Shown here piece after piece: positions 8,869-58,155 of a stretch of 64,000 bases of DNA. Origin of the DNA: an uncultured Gammaproteobacteria bacterium (GTDB lineage Bacteria; Pseudomonadota; Gammaproteobacteria; Methylococcales; Methylomonadaceae); NCBI GenBank assembly GCA_963696315.1, contig CAVOJU010000014.1, positions 56,605 to 120,604 of the forward strand, in the 5' to 3' direction. The position numbers and the translations under genes are program-made. The number at the start of each line of letters is the position of its first letter. Position 1 is the first letter of the stretch. Below the pieces are notes generated by a model. The model was not told the DNA's origin. It ran no database searches and saw nothing but the letters and a program-made list of their open reading frames with translations.

Positions 8869-10038
8869 TTATTGGGTCTCTTCCGGTTCCTCGTCTTTAT
8901 GGATGGCCTGCAACGACAGGTTGCCCAGCGGATCGTTTTTTGAACGATCGGGTGCGCCGGCCGGCGAGACCGAGCCCAGCCCCGCGCTCAGATTGATTTT
9001 CAGTTTGAGGTTGTTAGGTGAGTCGGAGTTTTGCAGCGCTTCTTCCAGTGAAATAGTACCTTGCTTAAACAGCCTCAACAGATGACTGTCAAAGGTCTGC
9101 ATGCCGACATTTTCGGATTTTTCCATGGCTTCCTTGATGCTGTGAATGTCGCCTTTATGGATCAAGTCACGCACCAGTTGCGTACCCAGCAAAATTTCAA
9201 TGGCGGCAGTGCGCGTGCCATCCATAGTGGGCACTAGACGTTGCGAGACAAAGGCTTTTAAATTCAATGACAAATCCAGCAGTAATTGCGATCGGCGCTC
9301 TTCCGGGAAAAAATTGATGATTCTGTCCAAAGCCTGATTGGAATTGTTGGCATGCAGGGTAGACAAGCATAAGTGCCCGGTTTCGGCGAATGCCAGCGCG
9401 TGTTCCATGGTTTCGCGAGTCCGGATTTCGCCAATCAGAATGACATCGGGCGCCTGCCGCAGCGTATTTTTCAGGGCGTCTTCATAGCTTAGGGTATCGA
9501 CGCCGACTTCCCGCTGGTTGACCAGTGATTTTTTATGCGGGTGCAAGTATTCGATAGGATCTTCAATAGTGATGATATGGCCGGAGGCATTGCTGTTGCG
9601 ATAATCGATCAGGGCTGCCAACGAAGTCGATTTGCCGGAACCGGTGCCGCCAATAAAGAGAATCAGGCCGCGTTTCTCCATGATGGATTTTTTCAGGATC
9701 GTTGGTAAACCGAGTTTGTCGGCATTGGGGATATCCACTTTAATATTGCGAATGACCAGCGCAAAGGAATTACGCTGCTTGAAAATGTTAACCCTGAATC
9801 GGCCAATGCCGGGTTCAGAGATGGCCAGATTCATTTCGGGCACATGTTCAAACGCCTTTTGCTGGTCGGTATCCATCAGGCTGTAGGCGATTTCTTTCAG
9901 GCGCTCATTGGTCAGGACAATGTTTTCCAAGGGTTTTAATGTGCCCTCAAATTTGGCTGCCGGTGGTGCGCCGGTGGTCAAATAAAGGTCGGAGCCATCT
10001 TTGTGAACGAGTATTGTGAGGTAGTCTTTGAATTCCAT
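8869..10038 (-). CDS. pilU: Type IV pilus retraction ATPase PilU (PilT family).
   Basis: GGTGSGKST Walker A, PilT-family His box, and the PilU-like DLYLTTGAPP motif. Confidence 0.85.
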   Translation of the reverse strand: MEFKDYLTILVHKDGSDLYLTTGAPPAAKFEGTLKPLENIVLTNERLKEIAYSLMDTDQQKAFEHVPEMNLAISEPGIGRFRVNIFKQRNSFALVIRNIKVDIPNADKLGLPTILKKSIMEKRGLILFIGGTGSGKSTSLAALIDYRNSNASGHIITIEDPIEYLHPHKKSLVNQREVGVDTLSYEDALKNTLRQAPDVILIGEIRTRETMEHALAFAETGHLCLSTLHANNSNQALDRIINFFPEERRSQLLLDLSLNLKAFVSQRLVPTMDGTRTAAIEILLGTQLVRDLIHKGDIHSIKEAMEKSENVGMQTFDSHLLRLFKQGTISLEEALQNSDSPNNLKLKINLSAGLGSVSPAGAPDRSKNDPLGNLSLQAIHKDEEPEETQ

Positions 10039-18553: not shown

Positions 18554-20266
18554 TTATTCCTTGGTTACGCGGTCGATTTCTTCCAGGCTGGTAATGCCCT
18601 GGCGAACTTTGTTTAAGCCTGATTCCCGTAAATCATTGATGCCTTCGGATTTGGCTTGCTCGGCGAGTTGCATGGCATTGCCGCCTTCGAGAATTAGTCC
18701 TCGCATGCGCTCACTCAAAGTCATGACCTGATAAATGCCGACCCTGCCTTTGTAGCCATTGGTGCAGTGCTCGCAGCCAGCAGGGCTAAAAATTTTCAGA
18801 TTTTTTAACTCATCGGCTTTAAAGCCGGCGGAAAGCAGCAGGTTATCGGGAAAAACGGCGGGGGTTTTGCAATGCTCGCATAAGCGCCGCGCCAGTCGCT
18901 GCGCCATGATGAGAAGCACGGCTGAGACGATATTAAAGGGTGCAATACCCATTTGCATCAGCCGGTTCAAGGTTTGCGGGGCATCGTTGGTATGCAGGGT
19001 TGATAAAACCAGGTGGCCTGTTTGCGCGGCCTTGACGGCAATCTCGGCGGTTTCCAGATCCCGGATTTCGCCGACCATGATAATGTCAGGGTCTTGGCGC
19101 AGGAAGGCGCGTAAAGCCGTCGCAAATGTTAAACCGGCTTTAATGTTCATGTTAACCTGATTGATGCCGTTCACGGTAATTTCAACCGGATCTTCGGCCG
19201 TGGAAATATTGCGCTCGATGCTATTGAGCAGATTTAAACCCGTGTAGAGCGTCACGGTTTTACCGCTGCCGGTAGGGCCGGTCACCAGAACCATGCCATA
19301 GGGTTTATTGATGGCCTGCAAGAAAAGTTTTTCCTGTTCTGGTTCAAAGCCCAGTTTTTCGATACCGATTTGCGCACTGGTAGGATCAAGAATACGCAAA
19401 ACCACTTTTTCACCGAACAATGTAGGACAAGTATTGACCCGAAAATCAATGGCGCGATGTTTGGACAAGGTCATTTTGATGCGTCCATCCTGAGGCACAC
19501 GGCGTTCGGCAATATCCATTTTTGCCATCACCTTGATTCTGGAAATAATTCGGTTGGCGATATTGGACGGCGGACTGGCGACTTCATAGAGCATGCCATC
19601 AGCCCTGAAGCGAATGCGGAAATTTTTTTCATAAGGCTCCAGGTGAATATCGGATACGCCTTTTTTGATCGAATCCAGCAGGATTTTATTGACGAAGCGG
19701 ACGATAGGGGCGTCATCAATATCGGCGTTGATGTCATCCTTGGCCGCATCATCGGCGCCGGGCGCGACGCTCAGATTTTCCAGATCAGCATCCAGCAAAT
19801 CCGCCATTGAGGTATCGGCGGCCTCCATCGCGGCTTCTATGGCTCTGACCAGTTTGCTTTCCTCAACCAGGATGGTTTCAGGATTGAGCCGGCTATGAAA
19901 TTTTATTTCATCTAGGGCCTGAAAATTGGTGGGATCCGAGATGCCGATAAACAGGGTTTTACCGCGCGTAAAAAGGGGTAAGACATGATGATTGCGTATT
20001 AGTTTTTCGTTGAGAACTTTGATAGGCAGGCTGCGCAAGTCGATGGCATCGAGATCAAAAAAAGGCATGCCAAATTCAATTGAAGCTTTTGAGGCAATAG
20101 TTTTGCTATCGACCAGCTTGTTGGTAACGAGATAGCTGATTAACGGCATCTTCTTTTTTTGCGCTTCCTGAATATGAAGCAGCGCTTCGCTTTCAGTCAA
20201 CAGGCCGTCCTGAACCAGGCAGTTGGCAAGAGCGTTAAATTGGATGTCAGTTAAAATGGCTGCCAT
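18554..20266 (-). CDS. pilB: Type IV-A pilus assembly ATPase PilB.
   Basis: GspE-N domain, Walker A VTGPTGSGKT, and a C-terminal tetracysteine motif. Confidence 0.9.
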   Translation of the reverse strand: MAAILTDIQFNALANCLVQDGLLTESEALLHIQEAQKKKMPLISYLVTNKLVDSKTIASKASIEFGMPFFDLDAIDLRSLPIKVLNEKLIRNHHVLPLFTRGKTLFIGISDPTNFQALDEIKFHSRLNPETILVEESKLVRAIEAAMEAADTSMADLLDADLENLSVAPGADDAAKDDINADIDDAPIVRFVNKILLDSIKKGVSDIHLEPYEKNFRIRFRADGMLYEVASPPSNIANRIISRIKVMAKMDIAERRVPQDGRIKMTLSKHRAIDFRVNTCPTLFGEKVVLRILDPTSAQIGIEKLGFEPEQEKLFLQAINKPYGMVLVTGPTGSGKTVTLYTGLNLLNSIERNISTAEDPVEITVNGINQVNMNIKAGLTFATALRAFLRQDPDIIMVGEIRDLETAEIAVKAAQTGHLVLSTLHTNDAPQTLNRLMQMGIAPFNIVSAVLLIMAQRLARRLCEHCKTPAVFPDNLLLSAGFKADELKNLKIFSPAGCEHCTNGYKGRVGIYQVMTLSERMRGLILEGGNAMQLAEQAKSEGINDLRESGLNKVRQGITSLEEIDRVTKE

Positions 20267-20408: not shown

Positions 20409-23322
20409 TTATAACGCCTGGATTTTTCGCTGCTGCTGTTCAAGATTATTCAACGACGAGCGTAAATCCGTCAGTTTTGCTTTTTCCTTGTCGATGACAT
20501 CTGCCGGTGCTTTATCAACAAAGCTCGGGTTGTTGAGCTTGCCTTCTATGCGCGGCAGTTCCTTGATGATTTTCTGGATTTCCTTGTCCAGACGGGCCAG
20601 TTCTGCTGCTTTGTCGATCAAACCAGCCATGGGAATCAGGATTTTCATCTCGCCGACCAAAGCAATGGCGGATTCGGGTGCCTGCTGTTCCCTGCTTAAC
20701 CAGGTGATGCTGTCCAGTCGGCCGAGTTTTTGCAAATAAGTCAGGTTGTTGCTGACCAGGGCCTGATCAGCAGGCGTGCCGTTTTGCAGCAAGACCGGCA
20801 AGGGTTTGCCAGGCGCGATATTCATTTCGCCACGGATACGGCGCACGCCCAGAATAAAATTCATTAGCCAGTCGATTTCACTGATGGCGGCGGTGTCAAT
20901 CAGTGCTTCATCCGCTACCGGATACGGTTGAAGCATGATGGTTTCGCCTCTATGCCGTTTAATGGCGCCACGCGCTGCCAGATTTCCTCTGTAATAAACG
21001 GCATTAAAGGATGGGTCAGCCGGAGCAGGGTTTCCAGAACGGTCAGCAGATTTTGCGGGTGCCGCGTTGTAGCGGTTATCCGCCGGGCTCGCTCCATGTG
21101 AGTTTGCGGTATACATACCATCCTTGGCGATCGCCGCACCCGTTCTCGACGGGTTTGCGGCATACACACCATCCTTGGCGATACCAGATTGCAGTGATAT
21201 TTTGGCCAGTTCCAGATACCAGTCGCAGTATTCATTCCAGGCAAATTCATAAATGGCCTGCGCTGCCAAGTCGAAGCGGTAGTTGTCGATAGCGTGCGTG
21301 GTCATTGCCGATTGACCTGATGTAGCCGCGAAATAATCCAGCGATCTGCCAAACTGTAGCTCAAATTCAACGCTGCCATAAATACCATTGTCTTGATTTT
21401 CGGTATTCATCAACACGTAAGCGCGCGGCATTCCAGAGTTTATTGCAGAAGTTGCGGTAGCCTTCGGTGCGGGCCAAATCAAAGCGAATGTCGCGGCCGG
21501 TTGATGCCAAGGAGGCAAACGTGAAACGCAAGGCATCAGTACCGAAAGATGAAATGCCGTCCGGAAATTGTTTGCGCGTGGCCTGCTCGATTTTCTTCGC
21601 CAAATGCGGTTGCATCATGCCGGAGATGCGTTTTTCAACCAGGGCTTCCAGATCAATGCCGTCGATCAAATCAATCGGATCGAGGACATTGCCTTTGGAT
21701 TTGGACATTTTCTGGCCTTCGGCATCACGCACCAGACCGTGAATGTATACTTCCCTGAACGGCACTTGGCCCTGAAATTTCAGCCCCATCATGATCATGC
21801 GGGCCACCCAGAAGAAGATGATGTCAAAGCCGGTGACCAGCACGCTGGTCGGGTAATGTTTGGCCAGTTCCGGGGTATTTTCCGGCCAGCCCAGCGTGGA
21901 GAAAGGCCAAAGCGCTGATGAAAACCAGGTGTCCAGCACATCTTCATCCTGCGTCAGAACATAGCCGTCCGCTAGCTTGTGTTGTTCACGGACTTCCTGT
22001 TCGGAGCGTCCGACATAAACATTGCCTTCGGCATCATACCAGGCCGGGATGCGGTGTCCCCACCAGATTTGCCGGGAGATACACCAGTCCTGGATGTTGC
22101 GCATCCAGTCAAAATAGGTATTTTTCCAGTTATCGGGCACAAATTTGATGGCGCCGGTTTCGACCGCTTCGATAGCGGGCTTGGCCAGCGGTTCAACTTT
22201 GACATACCACTGGTCGGTTAACAGCGGCTCAATCACCGTACCGGTGCGATCGCCCCTCGGCACCATCAATTTATGATCGACGATTTTTTCCAGTAAACCC
22301 TGGCTTTCCAGGTCGGCAACCATTTGTTTACGGGCTTCAAAGCGATCCAGACCAATATACTTTTCCGGTATCAGAGTGTATTCATCATCGTTGCTGCGAA
22401 TGGTCGCATCCACGGTGAAAATATTAATCAGGCCGCCGTGAGGCAAATCGCTGATGGCGGAGGTATCACGGTGGCGCATCCATACCGCGTAGTCATTGAA
22501 GTCATGCGCTGGTGTAATCTTGACACAGCCAGTGCCGAATTCGGGATCGACATAGTCATCGGCAATGATGGGAATACGGCGGCCGGTAAGCGGCAGTTCC
22601 ACAAATTCGCCGAGCAGATGCTTATAACGCTCGTCATTGGGATGGATGGCGACCGCGGCGTCACCGAGCAGGGTTTCCGGGCGCGTGGTGGCGACAATCA
22701 GATGGCCGGTACCGTTGCTCAAGGGATAACGCATATGCCACATGGAGCCGTTTTCTTCTTCAGACAGCACTTCCAGATCGGAGACGGCGGTATGCAGCAC
22801 CGGATCCCAGTTGACCAGGCGCTTGCCGCGATAAATCAGGCCTTCTTCATACAGCCGGATAAACACCTCCTGAACGGCCTCGGACATGCCCTCATCCATG
22901 GTGAAACGTTCCCGGTTCCAGTCCAGCGACGAGCCCATGCGCCGCAATTGACGGGTAATGGTGCCGCCGGACTGTTCCTTCCATTCCCAGATTTTTTCGA
23001 CGAATTTGTCCCGCCCATAATCATGGCGGGTTTTGCCTTCGGCATTACACAAGCGTTCCACGACCATTTGCGTGGCAATGCCGGCATGGTCGGTGCCCGC
23101 TTGCCACAGCGTGCTGTAGCCTTTCATGCGGTGGTAACGAATCAAGGCATCCATGATGGTGTCCTGGAAGGCATGGCCCATATGCAGGCTGCCAGTGACA
23201 TTGGGCGGCGGAATCATGATGCAGTAGGATTCACCATCCTGTTTGGGGGCAAAATAGCCTTTTGCTTCCCAGGTCTGATACCAGCGTTGTTCAATTAAAT
23301 GGGGGGCGTATGTTTTTTCCAT
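20409..23322 (-). CDS. valS: Valine--tRNA ligase. It spans at least three reading frames and contains an intragenic repeat insert.
   Basis: The N-terminal 651 aa (ORF 21367..23322) carries HMGH and KMSKS. The anticodon-binding domain and coiled coil are in ORF 20409..21536. A short stretch ([33 protein letters not shown]) reads only in the frame of ORF 20915..21250. Frame breaks lie near 21410, within 21082-21182, and near 20945. Confidence 0.85.
21082..21182 (-). repeat. Two tandem copies of a 51-nt unit inside valS, read through in the gene's frame as [17 protein letters not shown] / [17 protein letters not shown].
   Basis: atcgccaaggatggtRtgtatRccgcaa... units at 21132-21182 and 21082-21131 (gene orientation). 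The same unit occurs in holC. Confidence 0.8.
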
Positions 23323-23346: not shown

Positions 23347-23832
23347 TCAATGATTGATTTTATGCGTAGTAATCGCCATTCCTGACTGTTGATACTGACG
23401 ATAGCGCTGTCTGCCTGCGGCTTTGCTTGCTTCGCTGTTATCGAGAATTTCAAGGATTCGTGCGGCTTGTGCAGATGCTTGCGGGCAGGCTGAAGATAAG
23501 TTGACTACGGTTTGCTGCCAGTTGGCGGGCGGGGGTAGTGAGCCAATCAGAATAATTTTATCACCGGCCGCGCTCGCTCCCTGCGAGCTTGCGGCATACA
23601 CACCATCCTTGGCGATACCCGGCAACTCACCGGTAAAAATCTGGTGCGGAATAAAACTGCCTGCCCGGAAAGTCCAGAGCAGGTCGTCTATTTTTTGGCT
23701 TTGTTCTGCATTGTCGGTGAGCACGTAGCAATAGTGGCCGCTACGATAGGCTTTTTCTATCAGTTTGCAGGCGAACAGATAGCGATCCTGTAAGGATTCG
23801 GAGGACAGGATGTAAAAGCTGACGTCGGGCAT
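23347..23832 (-). CDS. holC: DNA polymerase III subunit chi.
   Basis: 161 aa with the HolC N-terminal fold (MPDVSFYIL...LWTFR). It contains an in-frame insert, [19 protein letters not shown]. Confidence 0.8.
   Translation of the reverse strand: MPDVSFYILSSESLQDRYLFACKLIEKAYRSGHYCYVLTDNAEQSQKIDDLLWTFRAGSFIPHQIFTGELPGIAKDGVYAASSQGASAAGDKIILIGSLPPPANWQQTVVNLSSACPQASAQAARILEILDNSEASKAAGRQRYRQYQQSGMAITTHKINH
23566..23616 (-). repeat. Single copy of the 51-nt intragenic repeat unit inside holC, flanked by ACC/ACC (+ strand) direct trinucleotides.
   Basis: ggccgcgctcgctccctgcgagcttgcggcatacacaccatccttggcgat matches the valS units. Confidence 0.8.
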
Positions 23833-38146: not shown

Positions 38147-41100
38147 ATGAATTACATCCAGATTGTCTTTACCCTTGCCGTCTCTGTGCTGATCGCGGCA
38201 CCCTCGTCAGCCGCAAATCCTACCAGGGCAGAGCTCACTCTCCAGTCCCAGCAGAGGCTTACCAAAATGCGCGAGGCGCTGGGTCTCGACGAGAATCACT
38301 CTTTCCAAATGCGAACGCCTGCAGCAGGATGCACTGGGGCAAACGCACATACGTTTCCAACAGTTCTACCACGGCATTCGCATCTGGGGCGGTGAAGTAA
38401 TCACCCACACGCAAGCGGATGGACGTGAACTTCCCGCCACCACTTCGGCGCTTAAACAGAATATTCAGGTCGATATAAAGCCGAAACTCTCCACTGCCGA
38501 TGCGCTGGCCTTGGTCAGGAAGGATCTCGCCTCGCGCTTTGACTTCACCGCCAAGCCCACGGTCGAACTCGTGATCTATCCCGAAACGGTGAGCCGGGTG
38601 TTACCCCGCCGAGCCCTTGTTCCCGAAAATAAGTTGAATGCCGAAGACTTTGTCACCGAGGTAAAAGGCTACCAGCTGGCCTACTACATCCATACGGAGC
38701 TGGAGCATCCGGGTGACACGCGCCACACGGACTATCTGGTGAATGCTCATACCGGCGCGATCATCGAGAAGTGGGATAGTCTTATGACCGCGGCAGCAAT
38801 CGGCACCGGAAAGAGCCAGTACAGCGGCACCGTAAATCTTAACACCAACAGCGTGGCAAACGGCTTCGAGTTGCGGGATTTGACCAGGCCTGTCAGCGGC
38901 GGCAACGTCATTTACAATCTCGATCACGCCACTTCAGGAACCGGTACCCTCTATACGGACCTCGACAATACCTGGGGTGACGGCATCAATTTCAAGGAGG
39001 ACCCTGAACCCACAACGTCAGCCAACGGGCAGACCGCTGCGGTGGATGCGGCTTTCGGGTTACAGGCCACCTGGGATATGTACAAGAATGTGTTCGGGCG
39101 TAATGGTATCAATGGACTCGGCACCCCCACCTACGCGCGCGTGCACTACGATTTTGCCTACGATAATGCCTTCTATTCAGACCAATGCATGTGCATCACC
39201 TACGGTGACGGAACCAAACTTCAGACCTTCACCTCCCTGGATATCGCCGCCCACGAATTCGCCCATGGCGTATGCATGACGACGGCAGGTCTCATTTACA
39301 ATAAGGAATCCGGCGGTCTGAACGAAGCCAATTCCGACATCATGGGCGCCATGGCGGAATTTTATATGCGGGGAGCCAACGGCCAGGGCAGCGTTATCCC
39401 TGATACGGGTGGAACCTGGACGCAAGGCGAGCAGATCACCACCCCCGCCTTTCCTCTCAAAATGCGTTTCTTGTACAAGCCCAGCAAGGACGGCAAGAGT
39501 GCCGATGCCTGGAGTCCCACCCTTAAAAACCTGAACGTTCATTACAGTTCCGGCCCCATGAATCGCGCCTTCTATTTCCTGAGTCAGGGCGCTACCAAGA
39601 CCGGAGAAACCTCTACTTCCTACTTGCCGCAGGGCATGACGGGCATCGGCAACGATAAGGCCGCCAGGATCTGGTTTCGTGCCCTGACTACTTACATGAC
39701 GCCCTCTACTGACTACGCGGGGGCCAGAATCGCTTGCATCCAGGCGGTAAGAGATTTATTCCCGGTTTCAGGATCCGAGGAAATCGCTGTGTGGAACGCC
39801 TTCGCCGGCATCAATGTTGGTAGCCCCTGGACGGGTCCCGATGCGCCTCCCAGCGTCACCGTTAGCGAAAGCGGGCAGAAGGGAACACTTACCTTCAGTG
39901 CTACCGCCAGTGATGACAAGGGGGTGGTCAAGGTTGAGTTTCTCCTCGATGGCGCTCTGGTGGGCTCAAGCACCTCGGTTCCTTACAGCATGACCTATGA
40001 TTCCCTGATGCAGGATGACGGCAGTCATACCCTGGTGGCCAGGGCCACCGATACTTCTGGCCAGTACACCAATGCCACGATGACTTTTACCATCGCTAAC
40101 GGACAACTCATCCGGAACGGCAGTTTTGAGAAAGGCTATGGCGTGGGCTGGTCAAATACGACGGGTATGCAAATCGGCGCCATCCTCGGCCAGACGGCTT
40201 ATGACGGCACCAAGATGGCCAAGTTCTGCGGCACCGGATCGAAAATGAGCGTAGGCCTTTATCAGTCGGTTGCCATTCCTGCCAATGTATCTTCGGCAAC
40301 CTTGAGTTATGCCTTGCACGTCGAAACCAAGGATACCTCTACCAGCGTTGCCAGCGACACTTTTGCCGTACAAGTCCGCAATAGTGCAGGAGCTATTCTC
40401 AAGACGCTGGCAACCTACAGCAACCTGAACGCAGCAACGGGCTACAAGGTTTACAGTTTCGATCTGGCTGCATTCAGGGGGCAGACGATCCAGCTGTATT
40501 TCCTGGGGGCCGAGGATGCGGCACTATCCACGGGTTTTATACTGGATAAGGTGAACCTCATGGTGAGCGATGGGGGTGGCGACCATGCGCCCACCATCAG
40601 TGCCAGCGTAAGCGGCAGCAGCGGCATTATCACTTTCTCGGCCACGGCTTCGGATGATGCCGGTGTGACCAAGGTTGAGTTCTACGTGGACGGTGTTCTC
40701 AAGGGTGCCGACGAGACCGCTCCCTATACCATGACCCTGGACAGCAAGACGCTAAGCAATGAAGCCCACATTCTGGTGGCCAAAGCCTACGATGCGGCGG
40801 GTAATGTCGGTACATCAACGCCAGTCAGCTTTTCGGTCAGCAATACGAGTGTCGATCAAGAACTTCCGGTCATTTCCGTCAGCGTGAACGGCAGCAGCGG
40901 CACCATTACCTTCAATGCCACGGCCACCGATAATAGTGGCGTCACCCGAGTGGAGTTTTACGTGGACAATATCCTGAAGGGTACGGATACTGTTTCGCCC
41001 TACAGCATGACCCTGGATTCCCTGAGCCTAAGCGATGGCAACCATGTCTTGATGGGCAAAGCGTATGATGCCGCAGGCAATATCGGTACGTCTTCAAGTG

Positions 41101-51664: not shown

Positions 51665-51717
51665 TGACTCGCAAGTCGCCTCACTTTCTTTAGGTAATAA
51701 GCTATTAAGGATTTTGC

Positions 51718-51887
51718 GAGAAATAACTTACTGTTAAATTTTTCCGTTCGTCCTGAGCATAATCGAAGAATGAATGGAAAAATTCCAGCCCGAAACGTCA
51801 TGCCGATCATGCTTCGACGAGCTCAGCACGAACGGCTTGACGAACACAATAGCGATTTCGGGAAGTTATTGATGACCAAATCCTAAT
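51718..51887 (+). repeat. Structured repeat of about 170 nt, copy A (candidate MITE or small RNA).
   Basis: About 90% identical to 55431-55599. It contains a 15-bp inverted repeat, ccgttcgtcctgagc...gctcagcacgaacgg, with an extended stem. Confidence 0.7.
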
Positions 51888-52797
51888 CGGAATAACGCCT
51901 GGTTTTTGTCTGAAATTGTTTAATCAGGGTGCCGGTGATACGGTCAAAAAACTCGTGCATGAGCAGCCCGCAGAGGATCAGCGCGGTGCCGGCGGCCACT
52001 TTCATCGTCAGCGGTTCCTGGTTAACACTATGGCCGAGCAGCAGGGAGAGCACAGGCGTCAGCAGTGTAATCAGCGCTACGCGGGTGGCTTCCAGATGCG
52101 TGAGCACATAGTAATACAGCGCAAAGCCGATGGTGGTGGCGATGGCGCCCAGATAAACAATGGCGGCCAGGCTGGTGACCGGTAAGGAGGCCGGCCAGTG
52201 TCCGTCGAGACTTGCCCAGGTGATTAAATATGCAGGTACCGCCAATAACAAACCTCCGGCTACCTGGGACAAGGCCGGCAGTTTTGCATTAATGCGTTTA
52301 ATCCAGACGGCGCTGGCCGATTGCAGAAAGGCCGCAATCAACACACCGATGATGCCCAACGCCGCGTCCGGGCCAAATTGCAAGGCCGAACCGAACATGA
52401 TCGCCAAGCCGCCAAGGCCGAACAGGTATGACAGGCATTTGCCCAGGGTCAGGCTGCGTTCATCCAGCCAGATAGCCGCTAACAGTGCCGTGATCAGCGG
52501 CGATAAGCCGAAGACGACTGAAATCCAGCCGGAAGGAATAAACTGCGCGGCCCAGTACACCACCAGCATGGAAGCGTAGATTTGCAGGGCGACGGCCAAA
52601 TAGGTCAGCCGCGCCTTGCGATGCCAGGCCAAGCCCTGCCTTAACAGTGGCAGGGTAATGGCCAGGCAGACCGCGCCAATACACATGCGGCCAGTAACCG
52701 CAAACAAAAAGCCGGGGCCTTCGCCGCTCCATTTGATCGCCAGCGGCGTGGTGGCCCAAAGTAAAATGACGCTGATATAGGCGATAGCTACGCGCAT
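51883..52797 (-). CDS. EamA/DMT-family transporter.
   Basis: Ten-TM duplicated EamA domains, 304 aa. Confidence 0.75.
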   Translation of the reverse strand: MRVAIAYISVILLWATTPLAIKWSGEGPGFLFAVTGRMCIGAVCLAITLPLLRQGLAWHRKARLTYLAVALQIYASMLVVYWAAQFIPSGWISVVFGLSPLITALLAAIWLDERSLTLGKCLSYLFGLGGLAIMFGSALQFGPDAALGIIGVLIAAFLQSASAVWIKRINAKLPALSQVAGGLLLAVPAYLITWASLDGHWPASLPVTSLAAIVYLGAIATTIGFALYYYVLTHLEATRVALITLLTPVLSLLLGHSVNQEPLTMKVAAGTALILCGLLMHEFFDRITGTLIKQFQTKTRRYSD

Positions 52798-53487
52798 CTA
52801 GGCCGTTTTTTTGCGCGCCACGAGAACGCCATCCCGGGTGGGATTGATGAAAGCATCAAAATCAGGGTCGGCAAAAATCATCTGATTATGTTCCAGTATG
52901 GCTTCGGTCCAGCCTGGTACGATGTCGACATAATTTTCCGCAGCGACGCGGCCATGCCAGAGCACGTTGTCGGCAATATAAAGTCCGCCGGGGCGGATGC
53001 GCGGTTTGGCCAGTTTCCACACTTCGGGATAATCGCCCTTGTCGACATCGTTGTAGCAGATGTCGAACAGGCCTTCGGTTTGGGCAAATACGTCCTGCGC
53101 AAAGCCGGTATGGAATTGAACTCTGTCCCATAAACCAACGGAGGCGAGATAGTGTTGGGCTTTGTCGCGGTTGACGGCATCGCCATCCGTGCAAATGATT
53201 TCGCCGGCAGGGCCGGTCGCGCGCGCAAACCAGTACGCGGAATAACCATAGCCGCTGCCGAATTCAAATATGCGGCGGGCATTAATGGACTTCGCCAGCG
53301 TTTCCAGAAATACGCCAACCAGGCGGTCAACGATGGGAAAATTATTTTTTCTGCGCATAAGCTTCCATCTCGGTTAGAACCGGATGATCGCTTTGCGTCA
53401 CCAGACTGCGCATATAGGTTTCGATGGCCGGATTAACCGGAACGATAACGGTAGGATTGACGATGGTGGGTGATTGCATGTCGGCCA
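52798..53487 (-). CDS. Class I SAM-dependent O-methyltransferase (family 3), with a frameshift at the T6/A6 run near 53345-53350.
   Basis: ORF 52798..53358 plus an upstream alternative frame (MADMQSPTIVNPTVIVPVNPAIETYMRSLVTQSDHPVLTEMEAYAQKK) together give a full-length O-methyltransferase. Confidence 0.7.
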
Positions 53488-53643
53488 TGATCGGTTCCTC
53501 GCGGTAAAATGGACTGCTGAAGTTAGCGTTACAATGGATTTTATCTTACTCTGTTTTCAGGCGCTAGGGTATCGGCTGATGGTGTTGCCGCCGAGGATTT
53601 TCCCGAGGGTCGAAATGACAGATTTTAAACCGGATGATGAGCC

Positions 53644-54499
53644 GTGAATAATAAAGACATTGCTGACAAGTTACGCGAAATTGCCGATTTGCTGCAAGAA
53701 CAAGGCGCCAATCCATTTCGCGCCAATGCTTACCGGCGCGCGGCCAAAACAATCGATGGCCTGAAACAGCCCGCTGGCCGAGCTCATCGAGAATGAGGGG
53801 TTTTCCGGGTTGACGGATTTGCCCGGCATCGGCGTGGGCATTGCGCGCTCGATTGTCGAGTATGTGCGCACGGGGCGCATGAGCCGGCTGCAGAGTTTAC
53901 AGGGCGGGCATGACCCGATTGAATTGTTCGAGCAGATTCCAGGCATTGGCCCCACACTGGCGCATCGGCTCATAGAGCTGTTGCACATCGATACCCTGGA
54001 AGCTCTGGAATTGGCCGCGCATAACGGCCGTCTGGCGCAGGTGCCGGGCTTTAGTCAAAAAAAGATTGAACTGGTGCAGCTCTGGCTGGCACATGTCCTG
54101 GGCTATCGGCGTTCTGCAAAAAGCGCAGAAATGCCTATTGCAGAACCCCCGGTCAGTTTATTGCTGCAAATCGATTTTCTGTATCGCAAAAAAGCCAAGG
54201 CCGAGGAATTGCCCAAAATTGCGCCCAAACGTTTTAATCCGGCGGGCGAGGCCTGGCTGCCGATCCTGCATGTAACCCGCAAGGGCTGGCATTTTACGGC
54301 CCTGTATTCCAATACCGCGCGCGCCCATCAGCTGGATCGGGTCATGGATTGGGTGGTGATATTTTTTTACGATGATCAGCACCATGAAGGCCAGCATACC
54401 GTGGTTACCGAGACTAAAGGCACTCTTGAGGGCAAACGCGTGGTGCGCGGGCGTGAGCAGGAATGCCGTGAACTGTTACTGGCTCGCCAGCCGGGATAA
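53644..54499 (+). CDS. PolX-like helix-hairpin-helix DNA-binding protein (lyase 8-kDa plus HhH fingers, no PHP domain), with a frameshift at the CCC run near 53770.
   Basis: The N-terminus, VNNKDIADKLREIADLLQEQGANPFRANAYRRAAKTIDGL, continues in the frame of ORF 53810..54499 (LTDLPGIGVGIARSIVEYV...). Confidence 0.6.
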
Positions 54500-55345
54500 C
54501 ATCAAAAACAGGCCGTTAGTCATTTTTGCAAACGGCACATAATTGAGCTTGTCCGGCGTATCCTGAGCCGTATGGTAATAGGGGTAGCGATAGAAAGCGG
54601 TATCGGTAATCATGAAAGCCTTATAACCGTGCCGCCAAAACGCCAGATGATCACTCCAGGACACGCCCGGTACAATCGCCAGCGTGGCTATGGATTCAAT
54701 CGGAAAATCAGTCACCGCGGCAAAGGTCTTGGCGCAATGGCGCATGACACCCCGGGAACGCAAGTTGGACACAAAGCTGATAAAATTGCCGGTATCGGGA
54801 TAAAAATACTTCAGCACAGGCGGATAGGCTTGACTGCCGTGTTGATTCCGGTAACAGCCGATAGTCTCCAGCGAGATCATGAAACGGATGTTGTCTCGCC
54901 GCTGCCTGGCGGCCTGGGCATAGATCATGCTGCCCATGCTGCGCCAGTAGAAAAAAGGCGGCTCTTCATTCACAAAAGCGACAAAACGCAGAGGGCTTGC
55001 AGGCGGCGCTGCCTTGAACAGACGAGACAGTTCCAGCAGCGCCGCCACGCCGCTGCCATTATCATTCGCGCCCGGACTGCCCAAAACCGAATCATAATGC
55101 GCGCCGATCAGGATGACATCGTTGCCAGAGCGGCTGCCGGTGCAGGTGATTTCAAGATTGGCGCATTCAACGCCCTGTACGGTATAAGTCTGTTTGCGGA
55201 CGGCATAGCCTTGCTGCTGCCATTCATCGGTAATATAAGCCTCCGCCGCATGGAGCGCTTCCGGATGAAAAATATTGTGCTCACCGATAGTACCGGCAAG
55301 TTCATAGACATGGGTTCGCAAGCGCTGTGTGGAAATTTCGTTCAT
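54476..55345 (-). CDS. M28-family metallopeptidase.
   Basis: HYDSV...NDNGSG...EE zinc-ligand pattern. The start is set at MNEISTQRL, so the gene does not run into the repeat. Confidence 0.75.
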   Translation of the reverse strand: MNEISTQRLRTHVYELAGTIGEHNIFHPEALHAAEAYITDEWQQQGYAVRKQTYTVQGVECANLEITCTGSRSGNDVILIGAHYDSVLGSPGANDNGSGVAALLELSRLFKAAPPASPLRFVAFVNEEPPFFYWRSMGSMIYAQAARQRRDNIRFMISLETIGCYRNQHGSQAYPPVLKYFYPDTGNFISFVSNLRSRGVMRHCAKTFAAVTDFPIESIATLAIVPGVSWSDHLAFWRHGYKAFMITDTAFYRYPYYHTAQDTPDKLNYVPFAKMTNGLFLMLSRLASQ

Positions 55346-55430
55346 GACATTACGACAGCAAAATGAACAATCCGTTGCAAAGTCAGCGGTGGCAAAAGCA
55401 ATGGCCATAGCGTGGATTAAGGATATGGCG

Positions 55431-55599
55431 GGAAATAACGTACCGTTAAATTTTTCCGTCTCGTCCTGAGCACAACCGAAGGATGCATGGAAAAATTCCA
55501 ACCCTAAGCGTCAAGCCGATCATGCTTCGACAAGCTCAGCACGAACGGCTTGACGAACACAATGGCGATTTCGGGAAGTTATTGATGACCAAATCCTAA
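55431..55599 (+). repeat. Structured repeat of about 170 nt, copy B.
   Basis: Direct copy of 51718-51887. Confidence 0.7.
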
Positions 55600-55667: not shown

Positions 55668-55729
55668 CTGTAGGAGCGACGCCCACGTCGCGATTTGAAG
55701 CACGGTGGGCGGGGCGTCGCTCCCACAAT
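55668..55729. repeat. Inverted pair of REP-like palindromes (tgtaggagcgacgcccacgtcgcg / reverse complement).
   Basis: The same unit recurs at 58129-58155. Confidence 0.7.
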
Positions 55730-56011
55730 GAAACTTGTCAATCCAGAACGGCTCCAAACGCCCCATGCTTGATAGGCTGAATTAGTTACCAAACTTTTTA
55801 TTCATTACCGTTTGCTTCCTGGCCGTTGCCAATGATGCCAACGACAACTTCAAAGGCGTTGCCGCTTTGTTCGGTATCGGCTGGGTCAGCGGGGCAAGGC
55901 CACACCCGGCGTCAATTGCAACAATTGCGTTATCCTGGCTGTCTGTTCCGTTGTAAGCTATGTCACTGCCGTTGATACCCAACTTTAAAAACAAAAGATA
56001 CGAGGCCTCTC

Positions 56012-58058: not shown

Positions 58059-58128
58059 AAATATAACGTAACTATTCGGCCAGGCGAACATGTGGCGGTT
58101 GGAGCCGCTCTGGATTGGCAGGATTCAC

Positions 58129-58155
58129 TGTGGGAGCGACGCCCACGTCGCGCCG
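58129..58155. repeat. REP-like palindrome (tgtgggagcgacgcccacgtcgcgcc).
   Basis: Same unit as 55668-55729. Confidence 0.7.

What the first reader, a model, noticed from the sequence alone, without database searches (positions are those of the whole stretch)
51718..55599. Two direct copies of a structured repeat of about 170 nt (candidate MITE or small RNA), bracketing a 3.5-kb gene block
The sequences at 51718-51887 and 55431-55599 are about 90% identical and co-oriented. Each contains a 15-bp inverted repeat, ccgttcgtcctgagc / gctcagcacgaacgg, that extends to a stem of about 27 bp (…ataatcgaagaatg / catgcttcgacga…) around a loop holding a second palindrome, ggaaaaattcc. Both copies are intergenic: one after ahcY, one before an M28 peptidase. 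Between them lie an EamA transporter, an O-methyltransferase, a PolX-like HhH protein and an M28 peptidase. The differences between copies include compensatory-looking changes in the stem (c/t, a/g), which could indicate selection for the RNA or DNA structure.
Basis: seen in the sequence. Interest (0 to 1): 0.6.

Follow-up and report, generated by a model that had tools for sequence, protein, structure and literature searches.

The report
Two ISAzo13-type MITE copies
The two 175-bp repeats are old, gene-less miniature copies (MITEs) of an ISAzo13-family insertion sequence in a Methylobacter-like genome, which is ordinary mobile-DNA debris, although their interior carries a widespread hairpin motif that I could not find described.

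Summary
The repeat is real. Copy A (51709-51883) and copy B (55421-55596) are co-oriented and 90.9% identical.

Each copy has 26-bp terminal inverted repeats and is flanked by a 3-bp direct duplication (TAA/TAA). The ends match the ends of ISAzo13-family insertion sequences (24-26 of 30 nt). One of these is a complete 1,331-bp IS in a Methylomonas plasmid, with a PF07592 transposase and a TTA/TTA duplication. A third, 188-bp relative sits in an unrelated metagenome context with TTA/TTA.

The elements are therefore non-autonomous MITEs of the ISAzo13 family. No matching transposase lies in the window.

Copy B is old. A relative with about 93% nucleotide identity keeps only a 97-nt core at the same site. 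The left repeats of A and B have decayed.

The small-RNA idea is not supported. There is no Rfam match at gathering score, no promoter or terminator signal, and no compensatory pair (0 of 55). All seven differences in the shared 38-codon ORF change the amino acid.

The 3.5-kb block is ordinary chromosomal DNA, not cargo.

The MITE interior is an inverted pair of a hairpin module, CCGTTCG-N3-TGAGCTTGTCGAA-N3'. This module is multicopy and intergenic in alpha-, beta- and gammaproteobacterial replicons, has covarying stems, and is absent from Rfam.

Copy number in the source genome remains unknown.

The parts
51706..51708 (.). Left target-site duplication of copy A (TAA)
   Evidence: Sequence read. 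It is identical to the 3 nt after the element (51884-51886).
51709..51883 (+). MITE copy A (175 bp), lying between the convergent genes ahcY and EamA
   Evidence: Its last base plus the TSD form the EamA stop codon TAG. The reconstructed empty site would end the ORF with TAA and leave the same protein.
51709..51734 (+). Left terminal inverted repeat of A (decayed)
   Evidence: 18/26 match to the reverse complement of the right repeat.
51742..51779 (+). Hairpin module 1 of A. It is degenerate, with a 14-nt loop TGAGCATAATCGAA.
   Evidence: Model R1: 20.8 bits, E = 0.01.
51801..51837 (-). Hairpin module 2 of A (CCGTTCG-TGC-TGAGCTCGTCGAA-GCA-T)
   Evidence: Model R1: 46.2 bits, E = 3e-8.
51858..51883 (+). 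Right terminal inverted repeat of A (TCGGGAAGTTATTGATGACCAAATCC)
   Evidence: 24-26 of 30 nt identical to the right ends of ISAzo13-family IS in L168, L169 and L170.
51884..51886 (.). Right target-site duplication of copy A (TAA)
55418..55420 (.). Left target-site duplication of copy B (TAA)
55421..55596 (+). MITE copy B (176 bp), 76 nt upstream of the M28 peptidase start codon (CDS 54476-55345, minus strand), in a divergent intergenic region
   Evidence: The orthologous site in L119 keeps a 97-nt core that is 94.8% identical.
55421..55446 (+). Left terminal inverted repeat of B (decayed)
   Evidence: 17/26 match to the right repeat.
55454..55492 (+). Hairpin module 1 of B (degenerate)
   Evidence: Model R1: 11.9 bits, E = 0.86. 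It is homologous by position to module 1 of A.
55514..55550 (-). Hairpin module 2 of B (canonical loop TGAGCTTGTCGAA)
   Evidence: Model R1: 51.6 bits, E = 2e-9.
55571..55596 (+). Right terminal inverted repeat of B
   Evidence: Identical to that of A.
55597..55599 (.). Right target-site duplication of copy B (TAA)

Best explanation
Each repeat is a miniature inverted-repeat transposable element (MITE) derived from an ISAzo13-family insertion sequence. It is a 175-bp, non-coding element.

**How it works.** Its 26-bp terminal inverted repeats are the binding and cleavage sites of an ISAzo13-type DDE transposase (Pfam PF07592) supplied in trans from elsewhere in the genome. It inserts at T-A/T-A and duplicates those 3 bp.

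**What is shown.**
- The terminal repeats.
- The 3-bp duplications.
- Their match to complete and partial ISAzo13 IS.
- Occurrence in at least three unrelated contexts.
- Absence of coding or RNA-gene signals.

**What is inferred.**
- Mobilisation in trans.
- The two window copies are now probably immobile, because their left repeats have decayed to 17-18/26.
- The interior is a captured or retained inverted pair of a widespread REP-like hairpin module.
- Any effect on neighbours is incidental. Copy A sits at the EamA stop codon between convergent genes. Copy B sits 76 nt upstream of the M28 peptidase.
For: **Ends match ISAzo13-family IS**
- blastn of the related copy L158 against plasmids hits the 3' ends of genes annotated 'ISAzo13 family transposase'.
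- The right ends align as GGATnTGG(n6)AATAACTTCCCGAAAT. Identity to MITE A is 26/30 (L168), 24/30 (L169) and 25/30 (L170).
- L170:1699-3029 is a complete 1,331-bp IS. Its repeats match 21/26, its flanks are TTA/TTA, and its 314-aa ORF hits PF07592 DDE_Tnp_ISAZ013 at E = 2.7e-107.

**Target-site duplications**
- The flanks are direct: A TAA/TAA, B TAA/TAA, L158 TTA/TTA.
- All five IS right ends examined are followed by TAA or TTA.
- Published statement: ISAzo13 and Zator 'generate 3 bp TSDs' (PMC10045372).

**Dispersal and age**
- A third copy, about 85% identical over 150 nt (blastn), lies in a different context (L158/L159).
- Copy B was already present before the split from L119, which shares 93-95% nt identity. 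L119 keeps a doubly truncated remnant with microhomology at both deletion junctions.

**Non-coding**
- All 7 differences in the shared 38-codon ORF are non-synonymous.
Against: - No ISAzo13 transposase is encoded in the 64-kb window or in about 86 kb from Methylobacter relatives.
- Copy number in the source genome is unknown. Only two copies are seen here.
- An exact 20-mer scan of the metagenome collection found no further copy.
- Translated searches found only two related ORF clusters.
- No empty (pre-insertion) site was recovered. Relatives are not syntenic at site A and keep a remnant at site B.
- The TSD argument rests on one informative base per element, and A and B may not be independent.
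- Similarity to the IS is confined to about 30 nt at each end.
Confidence: 0.85

Rival explanations
1. The elements are REPIN/BIME-type units. They would be an inverted doublet of REP-like hairpins spread by a RAYT-type (HUH/Y1) enzyme acting on single-stranded DNA, and the outer inverted repeats would be incidental.
For: - The interior is exactly an inverted pair of a hairpin module.
- Elsewhere that module occurs as singles, head-to-head doublets and clusters in intergenic DNA.
- It reaches up to 25 places per replicon.
- Its stems covary.
- Heterodimers with different stems are typical of REP dimers (PMC3733652).
Against: - In the window and in 86 kb of relatives the module occurs only inside these elements.
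- The similarity between A, B and L158 extends through the outer shell to the ISAzo13-type ends and stops at the 3-bp duplication.
- The module lacks the GTAG or CGTC tag of described REP superfamilies.
- No RAYT gene was seen.
Confidence: 0.05
2. The repeat is a structured small RNA gene or a cis-acting RNA element (for example an mRNA 3' stabiliser or 5' regulator), kept by selection on its fold.
For: - The predicted fold is strong: z = -4.6 on the plus strand and -3.5 on the minus strand.
- Hairpin 2 is the part retained in L119.
- A weak resemblance exists to Rfam AaHKsRNA41, an Aggregatibacter sRNA candidate (19 bits).
Against: - There is no Rfam match at gathering score.
- AaHKsRNA41 scores 19-30 bits against a threshold of 97.
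- There is no promoter-like or terminator-like site.
- 0 of 55 pairs are compensated.
- The DNA-parameter fold is equally significant, as expected for any inverted-repeat element.
- The two hairpins have their G-T wobble on opposite strands.
- The two copies lie in different transcriptional contexts, one between convergent genes and one between divergent genes.
Confidence: 0.05
3. The two copies are the ends of a composite mobile unit, or the product of a local segmental duplication that carries or brackets the 3.5-kb block.
For: - The two copies are direct repeats 3.7 kb apart.
- Synteny with L119 ends close to copy A, at window ~51940.
Against: - Flanking DNA outside the 3-bp duplications is unrelated.
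- The block has the same order and the same right-hand neighbours in L119.
- HhH-OMT-EamA is conserved in 77%-identity relatives that lack the element.
- A and B differ by 9%, more than the 5-7% divergence between the window and L119. The copies are therefore not a recent local duplication.
- A MITE has no transposase with which to move a composite unit.
Confidence: 0.03

Closest known systems
ISAzo13-family insertion sequences, for example the 1,331-bp copy in Methylomonas sp. AM2-LC plasmid CP157006.1 (L170:1699-3029), and partial copies in Methylomagnum ishizawai pRS11DPr2, Polaromonas and Thiothrix plasmids
   Same: - Terminal inverted repeats GGATnTGG...AATAACTTCCCGA.
- T-W-A flanks with a 3-bp duplication.
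- Occurrence in the same bacterial order (Methylococcales).
   Different: - The window elements are 175 bp and have no transposase gene.
- Their interior shows no similarity to the IS beyond about 30 nt at each end.
Bacterial MITEs in general (Correia/NEMIS of Neisseria, ERIC/IRU, RUP, Nezha, MITEAba12). This comparison is from my own knowledge.
   Same: They are short, non-coding, bounded by inverted repeats, flanked by a duplication typical of the parent IS, strongly self-folding, intergenic, and often placed next to gene ends.
   Different: - The parent family is ISAzo13. I found no described MITE of that family: 13 papers mention ISAzo13 and none in this sense.
- The copy number seen here is low.
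REP / BIME / REPIN elements mobilised by RAYT
   Same: - The interior is a head-to-head doublet of hairpins whose two stems differ.
- Elsewhere the module occurs as singles, doublets and clusters in intergenic DNA.
   Different: - There is no GTAG or CGTC tag.
- The loop is a 13-nt near-invariant sequence rather than a short loop.
- Only a 4-bp stem covaries.
- The module spans three proteobacterial classes rather than one lineage.
- It is not multicopy in this window.
Rfam RF02901 AaHKsRNA41 (Aggregatibacter sRNA 41)
   Same: Its 5' half has the same doublet core (GCUGAGCUUGcCGAAGCA ... UUCGgCAAGCUCAGC).
   Different: - Scores are 19-30 bits against a gathering score of 97.
- The outer stem and the 3' half differ.
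- This is a resemblance, not membership.
Eukaryotic Zator transposons
   Same: They are reported as relatives of ISAzo13 and also make 3-bp duplications (PMC5718144, PMC10045372).
   Different: They are eukaryotic autonomous elements. No sequence comparison was made here.

Membership tests
MITE (non-autonomous derivative of a DDE insertion sequence) | Short, with no coding capacity | tested here: met
   The elements are 175/176 bp. The only shared ORF is 38 codons, and all 7 differences in it are non-synonymous.
MITE (non-autonomous derivative of a DDE insertion sequence) | Terminal inverted repeats | tested here: met
   Over 26 bp the match is 18/26 (A), 17/26 (B) and 22/26 (L158). The pattern is found 3 times against 0.02 expected by chance.
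MITE (non-autonomous derivative of a DDE insertion sequence) | Ends match those of an autonomous IS family | tested here: met
   24-26 of 30 nt are identical to ISAzo13-family IS right ends. The transposase is confirmed as PF07592.
MITE (non-autonomous derivative of a DDE insertion sequence) | Target-site duplication of the parent's length and type | tested here: met
   TAA/TAA, TAA/TAA and TTA/TTA for the three MITEs, and TTA/TTA for the complete IS. A 3-bp TSD for ISAzo13 is stated in PMC10045372.
MITE (non-autonomous derivative of a DDE insertion sequence) | Several copies at unrelated sites in a genome | tested here: inconclusive
   There are two copies in 64 kb with unrelated flanks, and a third in another metagenome context.
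MITE (non-autonomous derivative of a DDE insertion sequence) | Empty sites in related genomes | tested here: inconclusive
   Relatives L119 and L160-L162 lack the element after EamA but are not syntenic there. At site B, L119 holds a truncated remnant.
MITE (non-autonomous derivative of a DDE insertion sequence) | Cognate transposase in the same genome | not testable with these tools
   None lies in the window or in the fetched relatives' loci (tblastn). The rest of the genome is not available.
REP/REPIN (RAYT-associated) | GTAG or CGTC terminal tag next to the palindrome | tested here: not met
   The module begins with CCGTTCG. This motif does not occur in the text of the survey of the two REP superfamilies (PMC3733652).
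REP/REPIN (RAYT-associated) | High copy number in the host genome | tested here: not met
   Model R1 finds the module only inside the two MITEs in 64 kb. In 86 kb of relatives it finds only the L119 remnant and L158.
REP/REPIN (RAYT-associated) | Inverted doublet able to fold as one hairpin | tested here: met
   The interior is an inverted pair.
REP/REPIN (RAYT-associated) | A RAYT gene in the genome | not tested
   No RAYT query was run, and only 64 kb of the genome is available.
Structured small RNA (Rfam family or new) | Match to a curated family at its gathering score | tested here: not met
   0 matches at gathering score in the window and in 14 loci carrying the module.
Structured small RNA (Rfam family or new) | Compensatory changes that keep the fold | tested here: not met
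   0 of 55 pairs among A, B and L158. With three sequences the power is low. The 4-bp stem of the module does covary across 66 arms from many genomes.
Structured small RNA (Rfam family or new) | Own promoter and terminator | tested here: not met
   None was found within either element. These are consensus scans only.
Autonomous ISAzo13 insertion sequence | Encodes a PF07592 DDE transposase | tested here: not met
   There is no transposase ORF in 175 bp and no tblastn hit in the window.

The most novel reading that the evidence does not exclude
The hairpin pair inside the MITE may belong to an undescribed family of REP-like hairpins shared across bacterial classes.

**Form.** The module is CCGTTCG-N3-TGAGCTTGTCGAA-N3'(C/T). 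The 13-nt loop is nearly invariant, the 4-bp stem covaries, and a recurrent G-T wobble lies on one strand.

**Distribution.** It occurs as singles, inverted doublets and clusters in intergenic DNA of Sphingobium, Comamonas and Methylococcales replicons, and in GTA/prophage-like contigs.

**What that would imply.**
- A single-stranded nucleic-acid recognition element for a still unidentified, widely distributed protein or RNA partner.
- The MITE would be a chimera in which one mobile system (ISAzo13 ends) carries the repeat unit of another.
Probability: 0.3. Interest if true: 0.6.

Novelty: new member of a known kind. Interest (0 to 1): 0.3.

Why it matters
For the finding itself, little changes. 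It is a pair of decayed MITEs.

**Practical value.**
- Annotation: the spurious ORFs 55483-55599, 51770-51886 and the TTG-extended M28 ORF should not be called.
- Copy A explains a synteny break near the EamA stop codon.
- Copy B explains an expanded promoter region upstream of the M28 peptidase gene.

**Modest wider value.**
- It links a MITE to the little-studied ISAzo13 family, which a 2022 survey found in only 3 gammaproteobacterial genomes (PMC9208149).
- It defines that family's end sequence and its T-W-A target in Methylococcales.

**The by-product may matter more.** The hairpin module has a conserved loop and covarying stems, is present in many replicons, and is missing from Rfam. It could merit its own study and, at the least, a repeat or anti-family model to stop false gene calls.

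Tried and rejected
1. **Genome-collection scan.** I used ACGAACGGCTTGACGAAC. None carried the element.
2. **Metagenome scan.** GCGATTTCGGGAAGTTATTG gave one chance hit, inside a coding region.
3. **Viral scans.**
   - Two patterns found no further copy of the MITE.
   - GYGATTTCGGGAAGTTATT gave one hit, L163. It proved to be a genuine ISAzo13 right end.
4. **Source-contig look-up.** An exact look-up with AhcY found nothing on record.
5. **Protein search with translated element frames.**
   - One frame found P0121 and P0122, which led to L158/L159.
   - P0122 is too short to look up.
   - The other frame found nothing.
6. **Coding hypothesis for the 38-aa ORF.** Rejected, because all differences are non-synonymous.
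Rejected.
8. **Integron attC, Tn3-type ends, tRNA or rRNA resemblance, ribozyme cores.** I considered these from memory only. The motifs do not fit, and I did not pursue them.
9. **A shared enzyme near the hairpin module.** Clustering ORFs of the 33 viral loci showed only a common GTA/prophage-like structural gene cluster and no transposase.
10. **Literature searches.** Searches for the module as DNA, RNA or translated strings found nothing relevant.


Full report
**1. The observation**

The two stretches are real direct repeats.
- The repeat finder reports 51736-51886 and 55449-55599 at 90%.
- A pairwise alignment shows that similarity starts and stops sharply.
- After the ends were defined (below), copy A is 51709-51883 and copy B is 55421-55596. 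They are 160/176 = 90.9% identical, with 15 substitutions and one 1-nt indel.
- Differences are concentrated in the left half. The right 26 nt are identical.
- No further copy or fragment is in the window, by blastn, end pattern or covariance model.
- The organism is a Methylobacter relative. EamA homologues are named Methylobacter, and the best is 93% identical.

**2. Anatomy**

Each copy has the following parts.
- 26-bp terminal inverted repeats (left GGATTTTGCGAGAAATAACTTACTGT, right TCGGGAAGTTATTGATGACCAAATCC). They match 18/26 in A and 17/26 in B.
- An identical trinucleotide on each side: TAA...TAA for both A and B.
- An interior made of two local hairpins in inverted orientation.

Single-sequence RNA and DNA folds and the alignment fold all give the same picture: an outer stem from the terminal repeats plus two hairpins.

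**3. A third copy and the age of copy B**

- A spurious ORF in the element (frame ...VKPIMLRQAQHERLD...) retrieved two small ORF clusters from the protein collection.
- One cluster led to L158/L159, two JGI metagenome contigs that are 99.6% identical to each other.
- These carry a 188-bp element with about 85% identity, the same architecture and better repeats (22/26). It is flanked by TTA...TTA and lies among unrelated genes.
- In L119 (ENA contig; 93-95% nt identity to the window across the block) the site of copy B holds only a 97-nt core that is 94.8% identical to B.
- Both junctions in L119 fall at short microhomologies (GGCAAAA/GGAAAAA and ATTG/ATTG), so L119 has lost both ends by deletion.
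- Copy B therefore predates the split of the two lineages and is decaying in one of them.
- No relative carries copy A, but none is syntenic there. I found no empty site.

**4. Identity of the ends**

- blastn of the L158 element against plasmids hit the extreme 3' ends of genes annotated 'ISAzo13 family transposase'. The hits were in Methylomagnum ishizawai (L168) and in Polaromonas and Methylomonas plasmids.
- Aligned outward-in, the IS right ends and the MITE ends read GGATnTGG(n6)AATAACTTCCCGAAAT. Identity to MITE A is 24-26 of 30.
- L170:1699-3029 is a complete 1,331-bp IS with repeats matching 21/26 and flanks TTA/TTA. Its 314-aa ORF matches PF07592 DDE_Tnp_ISAZ013 at E = 2.7e-107.
- All five IS right ends examined, including a Thiothrix copy and the viral-collection hit L163, are followed by TAA or TTA.
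- In all four elements with both ends available, the central base of the flanking triplet agrees as a direct repeat and disagrees as an inverted one. This is what a 3-bp duplication of a T-W-A target predicts.
- Literature agrees that ISAzo13, like its eukaryotic relative Zator, makes 3-bp duplications (PMC10045372; PMC5718144).
- L158 also keeps 12 nt of IS-like subterminal sequence (CCCGATATGGAT against CCCATAATTTGGAT) that A and B lack.
- No ISAzo13 transposase is encoded in the window or in the relatives' loci.
- The elements are therefore non-autonomous ISAzo13-family MITEs, and the decay of the left repeat suggests that A and B are no longer mobile. That last step is an inference.

**5. 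Tests of the RNA and coding readings**

- Rfam gives no match at gathering score.
- The only recurrent weak match is AaHKsRNA41 (RF02901), at 19 bits here and 22-30 bits on canonical units elsewhere, against a threshold of 97.
- No promoter-like or terminator-like site lies in either element.
- RNAalifold on A, B and L158 finds 0 of 55 pairs compensated.
- The shared 38-codon ORF differs at seven nucleotides, all non-synonymous.
- Each hairpin has its G-T wobble on its own strand. On the plus strand hairpin 1 has G-U pairs but hairpin 2 has A-C mismatches, which argues against one selected transcript.

**6. The 3.5-kb block**

- In L119 the order EamA-OMT-HhH-M28-methyltransferase-NlpE-sulfatase is the same as in the window.
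- Relatives with 77% EamA identity keep HhH-OMT-EamA without any element.
- The block is resident chromosome, not cargo.
- Homology with L119 ends at about 51940, within the last codons of EamA. L119 has IS fragments beyond that point.
- Copy A thus lies at a rearrangement-prone junction. Its last base plus the duplicated TA form the EamA stop codon (TAG). The reconstructed empty site would read TAA and give the same protein.

**7. The interior hairpin module**

- A 24-nt pattern from hairpin 2 (CTTCGACRAGCTCRGSACGAACGG) occurs in 33 viral-collection contigs. I estimate far fewer than one by chance.
- The 13-nt loop core of the module (TGAGCYTGTCGAA) occurs in none of the 118 random genome loci fetched earlier.
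- Sixty-six arms align without gaps as CCGTTCG-N3-TGAGCTTGTCGAA-N3'-(C/T).
- The four pairs next to the 13-nt loop are formed in 62-64 of 66 arms.
  - Two of them show many double changes (UA 47/CG 12/GC 3; CG 36/GC 26).
  - A third shows GC 42/GU 21.
  - No shuffle and no slid register comes near.
- Arms occur in three forms: complete single hairpins (always with G-T at the seventh stem pair), head-to-head doublets whose two stems differ, and clusters.
- With model R1 the module is confirmed in a Methylobacter plasmid, a Methylotuvimicrobium plasmid and a Comamonas megaplasmid, always in unannotated intergenic DNA.
- blastn finds 17-25 places in Comamonas megaplasmids and up to 15 in Sphingobium replicons. 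It finds none in 50,697 isolate phage genomes.
- Thirteen of the 33 'viral' contigs share one syntenic structural-gene cluster with the doublet at the same spot.
- The organisation resembles REP/BIME/REPIN elements, but the module lacks their GTAG or CGTC tag and has a long, conserved loop (PMC3733652).
- I found it neither in Rfam nor by searching the literature for its DNA, RNA or translated strings.
- I found no associated enzyme. What the module does is unknown.
- My working view, held with low confidence, is that it is a REP-like single-strand hairpin that the MITE acquired or retained.

**8. Verdict**

- The MITE interpretation is supported and refined to the ISAzo13 family.
- The small-RNA, compensatory-change and mobile-block ideas are not supported.
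- This is a new member of a known kind and of low to moderate interest.
- The main gap is copy number and the partner transposase in the source genome.

Noticed in passing
window 51742-51779, 51801-51837, 55454-55492, 55514-55550; also L171:1500-1536, L172:992-1098, L173:20001-20238 and 39005-39041, L124-L156: A hairpin module, CCGTTCG-N3-TGAGCTTGTCGAA-N3', has a near-invariant 13-nt loop and a covarying 4-bp stem. It is multicopy and intergenic in Sphingobium, Comamonas and Methylococcales replicons and in 33 viral-collection contigs. It is not in Rfam and I did not find it in the literature.
   Followed up: partly
window 55670-55683 (+), 55713-55726 (-), 58130-58143 (+); arms 55712-55782 / 58074-58144: A second, classical REP-like palindrome family, GT(A/G)GGAGCGACGCCCACGTCGCG. 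A 71-nt inverted pair (82% complementary) brackets the 347-aa methyltransferase and the NlpE gene. These sequences are absent from the shorter orthologous intergenic region of L119.
   Followed up: partly
window 53644-54496 (+): The HhH (PolX-like) gene appears frameshifted near 53771. Residues 1-43 are in one frame and 43-284 in the next, whereas L119 has an intact 284-aa gene. This is either a pseudogene or a sequencing error.
   Followed up: partly
window 51883-51886: The EamA stop codon (TAG on the minus strand) is built from the last base of MITE A plus two bases of its target duplication. The reconstructed pre-insertion sequence ends with TAA and gives the same protein.
   Followed up: yes
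window ~51940 versus L119:10858 onward: Synteny with the closest relative ends inside the last ~19 codons of EamA. L119 has IS fragments (Transposase_29 and others) there instead of ahcY, so MITE A lies at a rearrangement junction.
   Followed up: partly
Rfam RF02901 (AaHKsRNA41) versus L128:4516-4593, L136:3266-3350, L140:3684-3861: The 5' half of this Rfam sRNA family looks like a doublet of a related palindromic repeat, scoring 22-30 bits on many unrelated loci. The family may have been built on a repeat element.
   Followed up: no
L130, L132, L135, L140, L143, L144, L146, L147, L149, L154, L156 and others: About 13 of the 33 'viral' contigs share one syntenic gene cluster, which looks GTA- or prophage-like. 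The hairpin doublet sits at the same intergenic position in them, just upstream of a gene beginning ...LRFAGYAAIF.
   Followed up: partly
window 21082-21187 and 23567-23621; 40604-40711 and 40880-40987; 9409-9462 and 19049-19102: the repeat finder reported other direct repeats (55 nt x3, 108 nt x2, 54 nt x2, at 70-85% identity). They may be repeated coding motifs.
   Followed up: no
window 55483-55599, 51770-51886, 55346-55501: Some ORFs in or across the MITEs are likely to be miscalled by gene finders: the 38-aa ORF and the TTG-extended 341-aa version of the M28 peptidase. The real M28 start is at 55345, giving 289 aa.
   Followed up: yes
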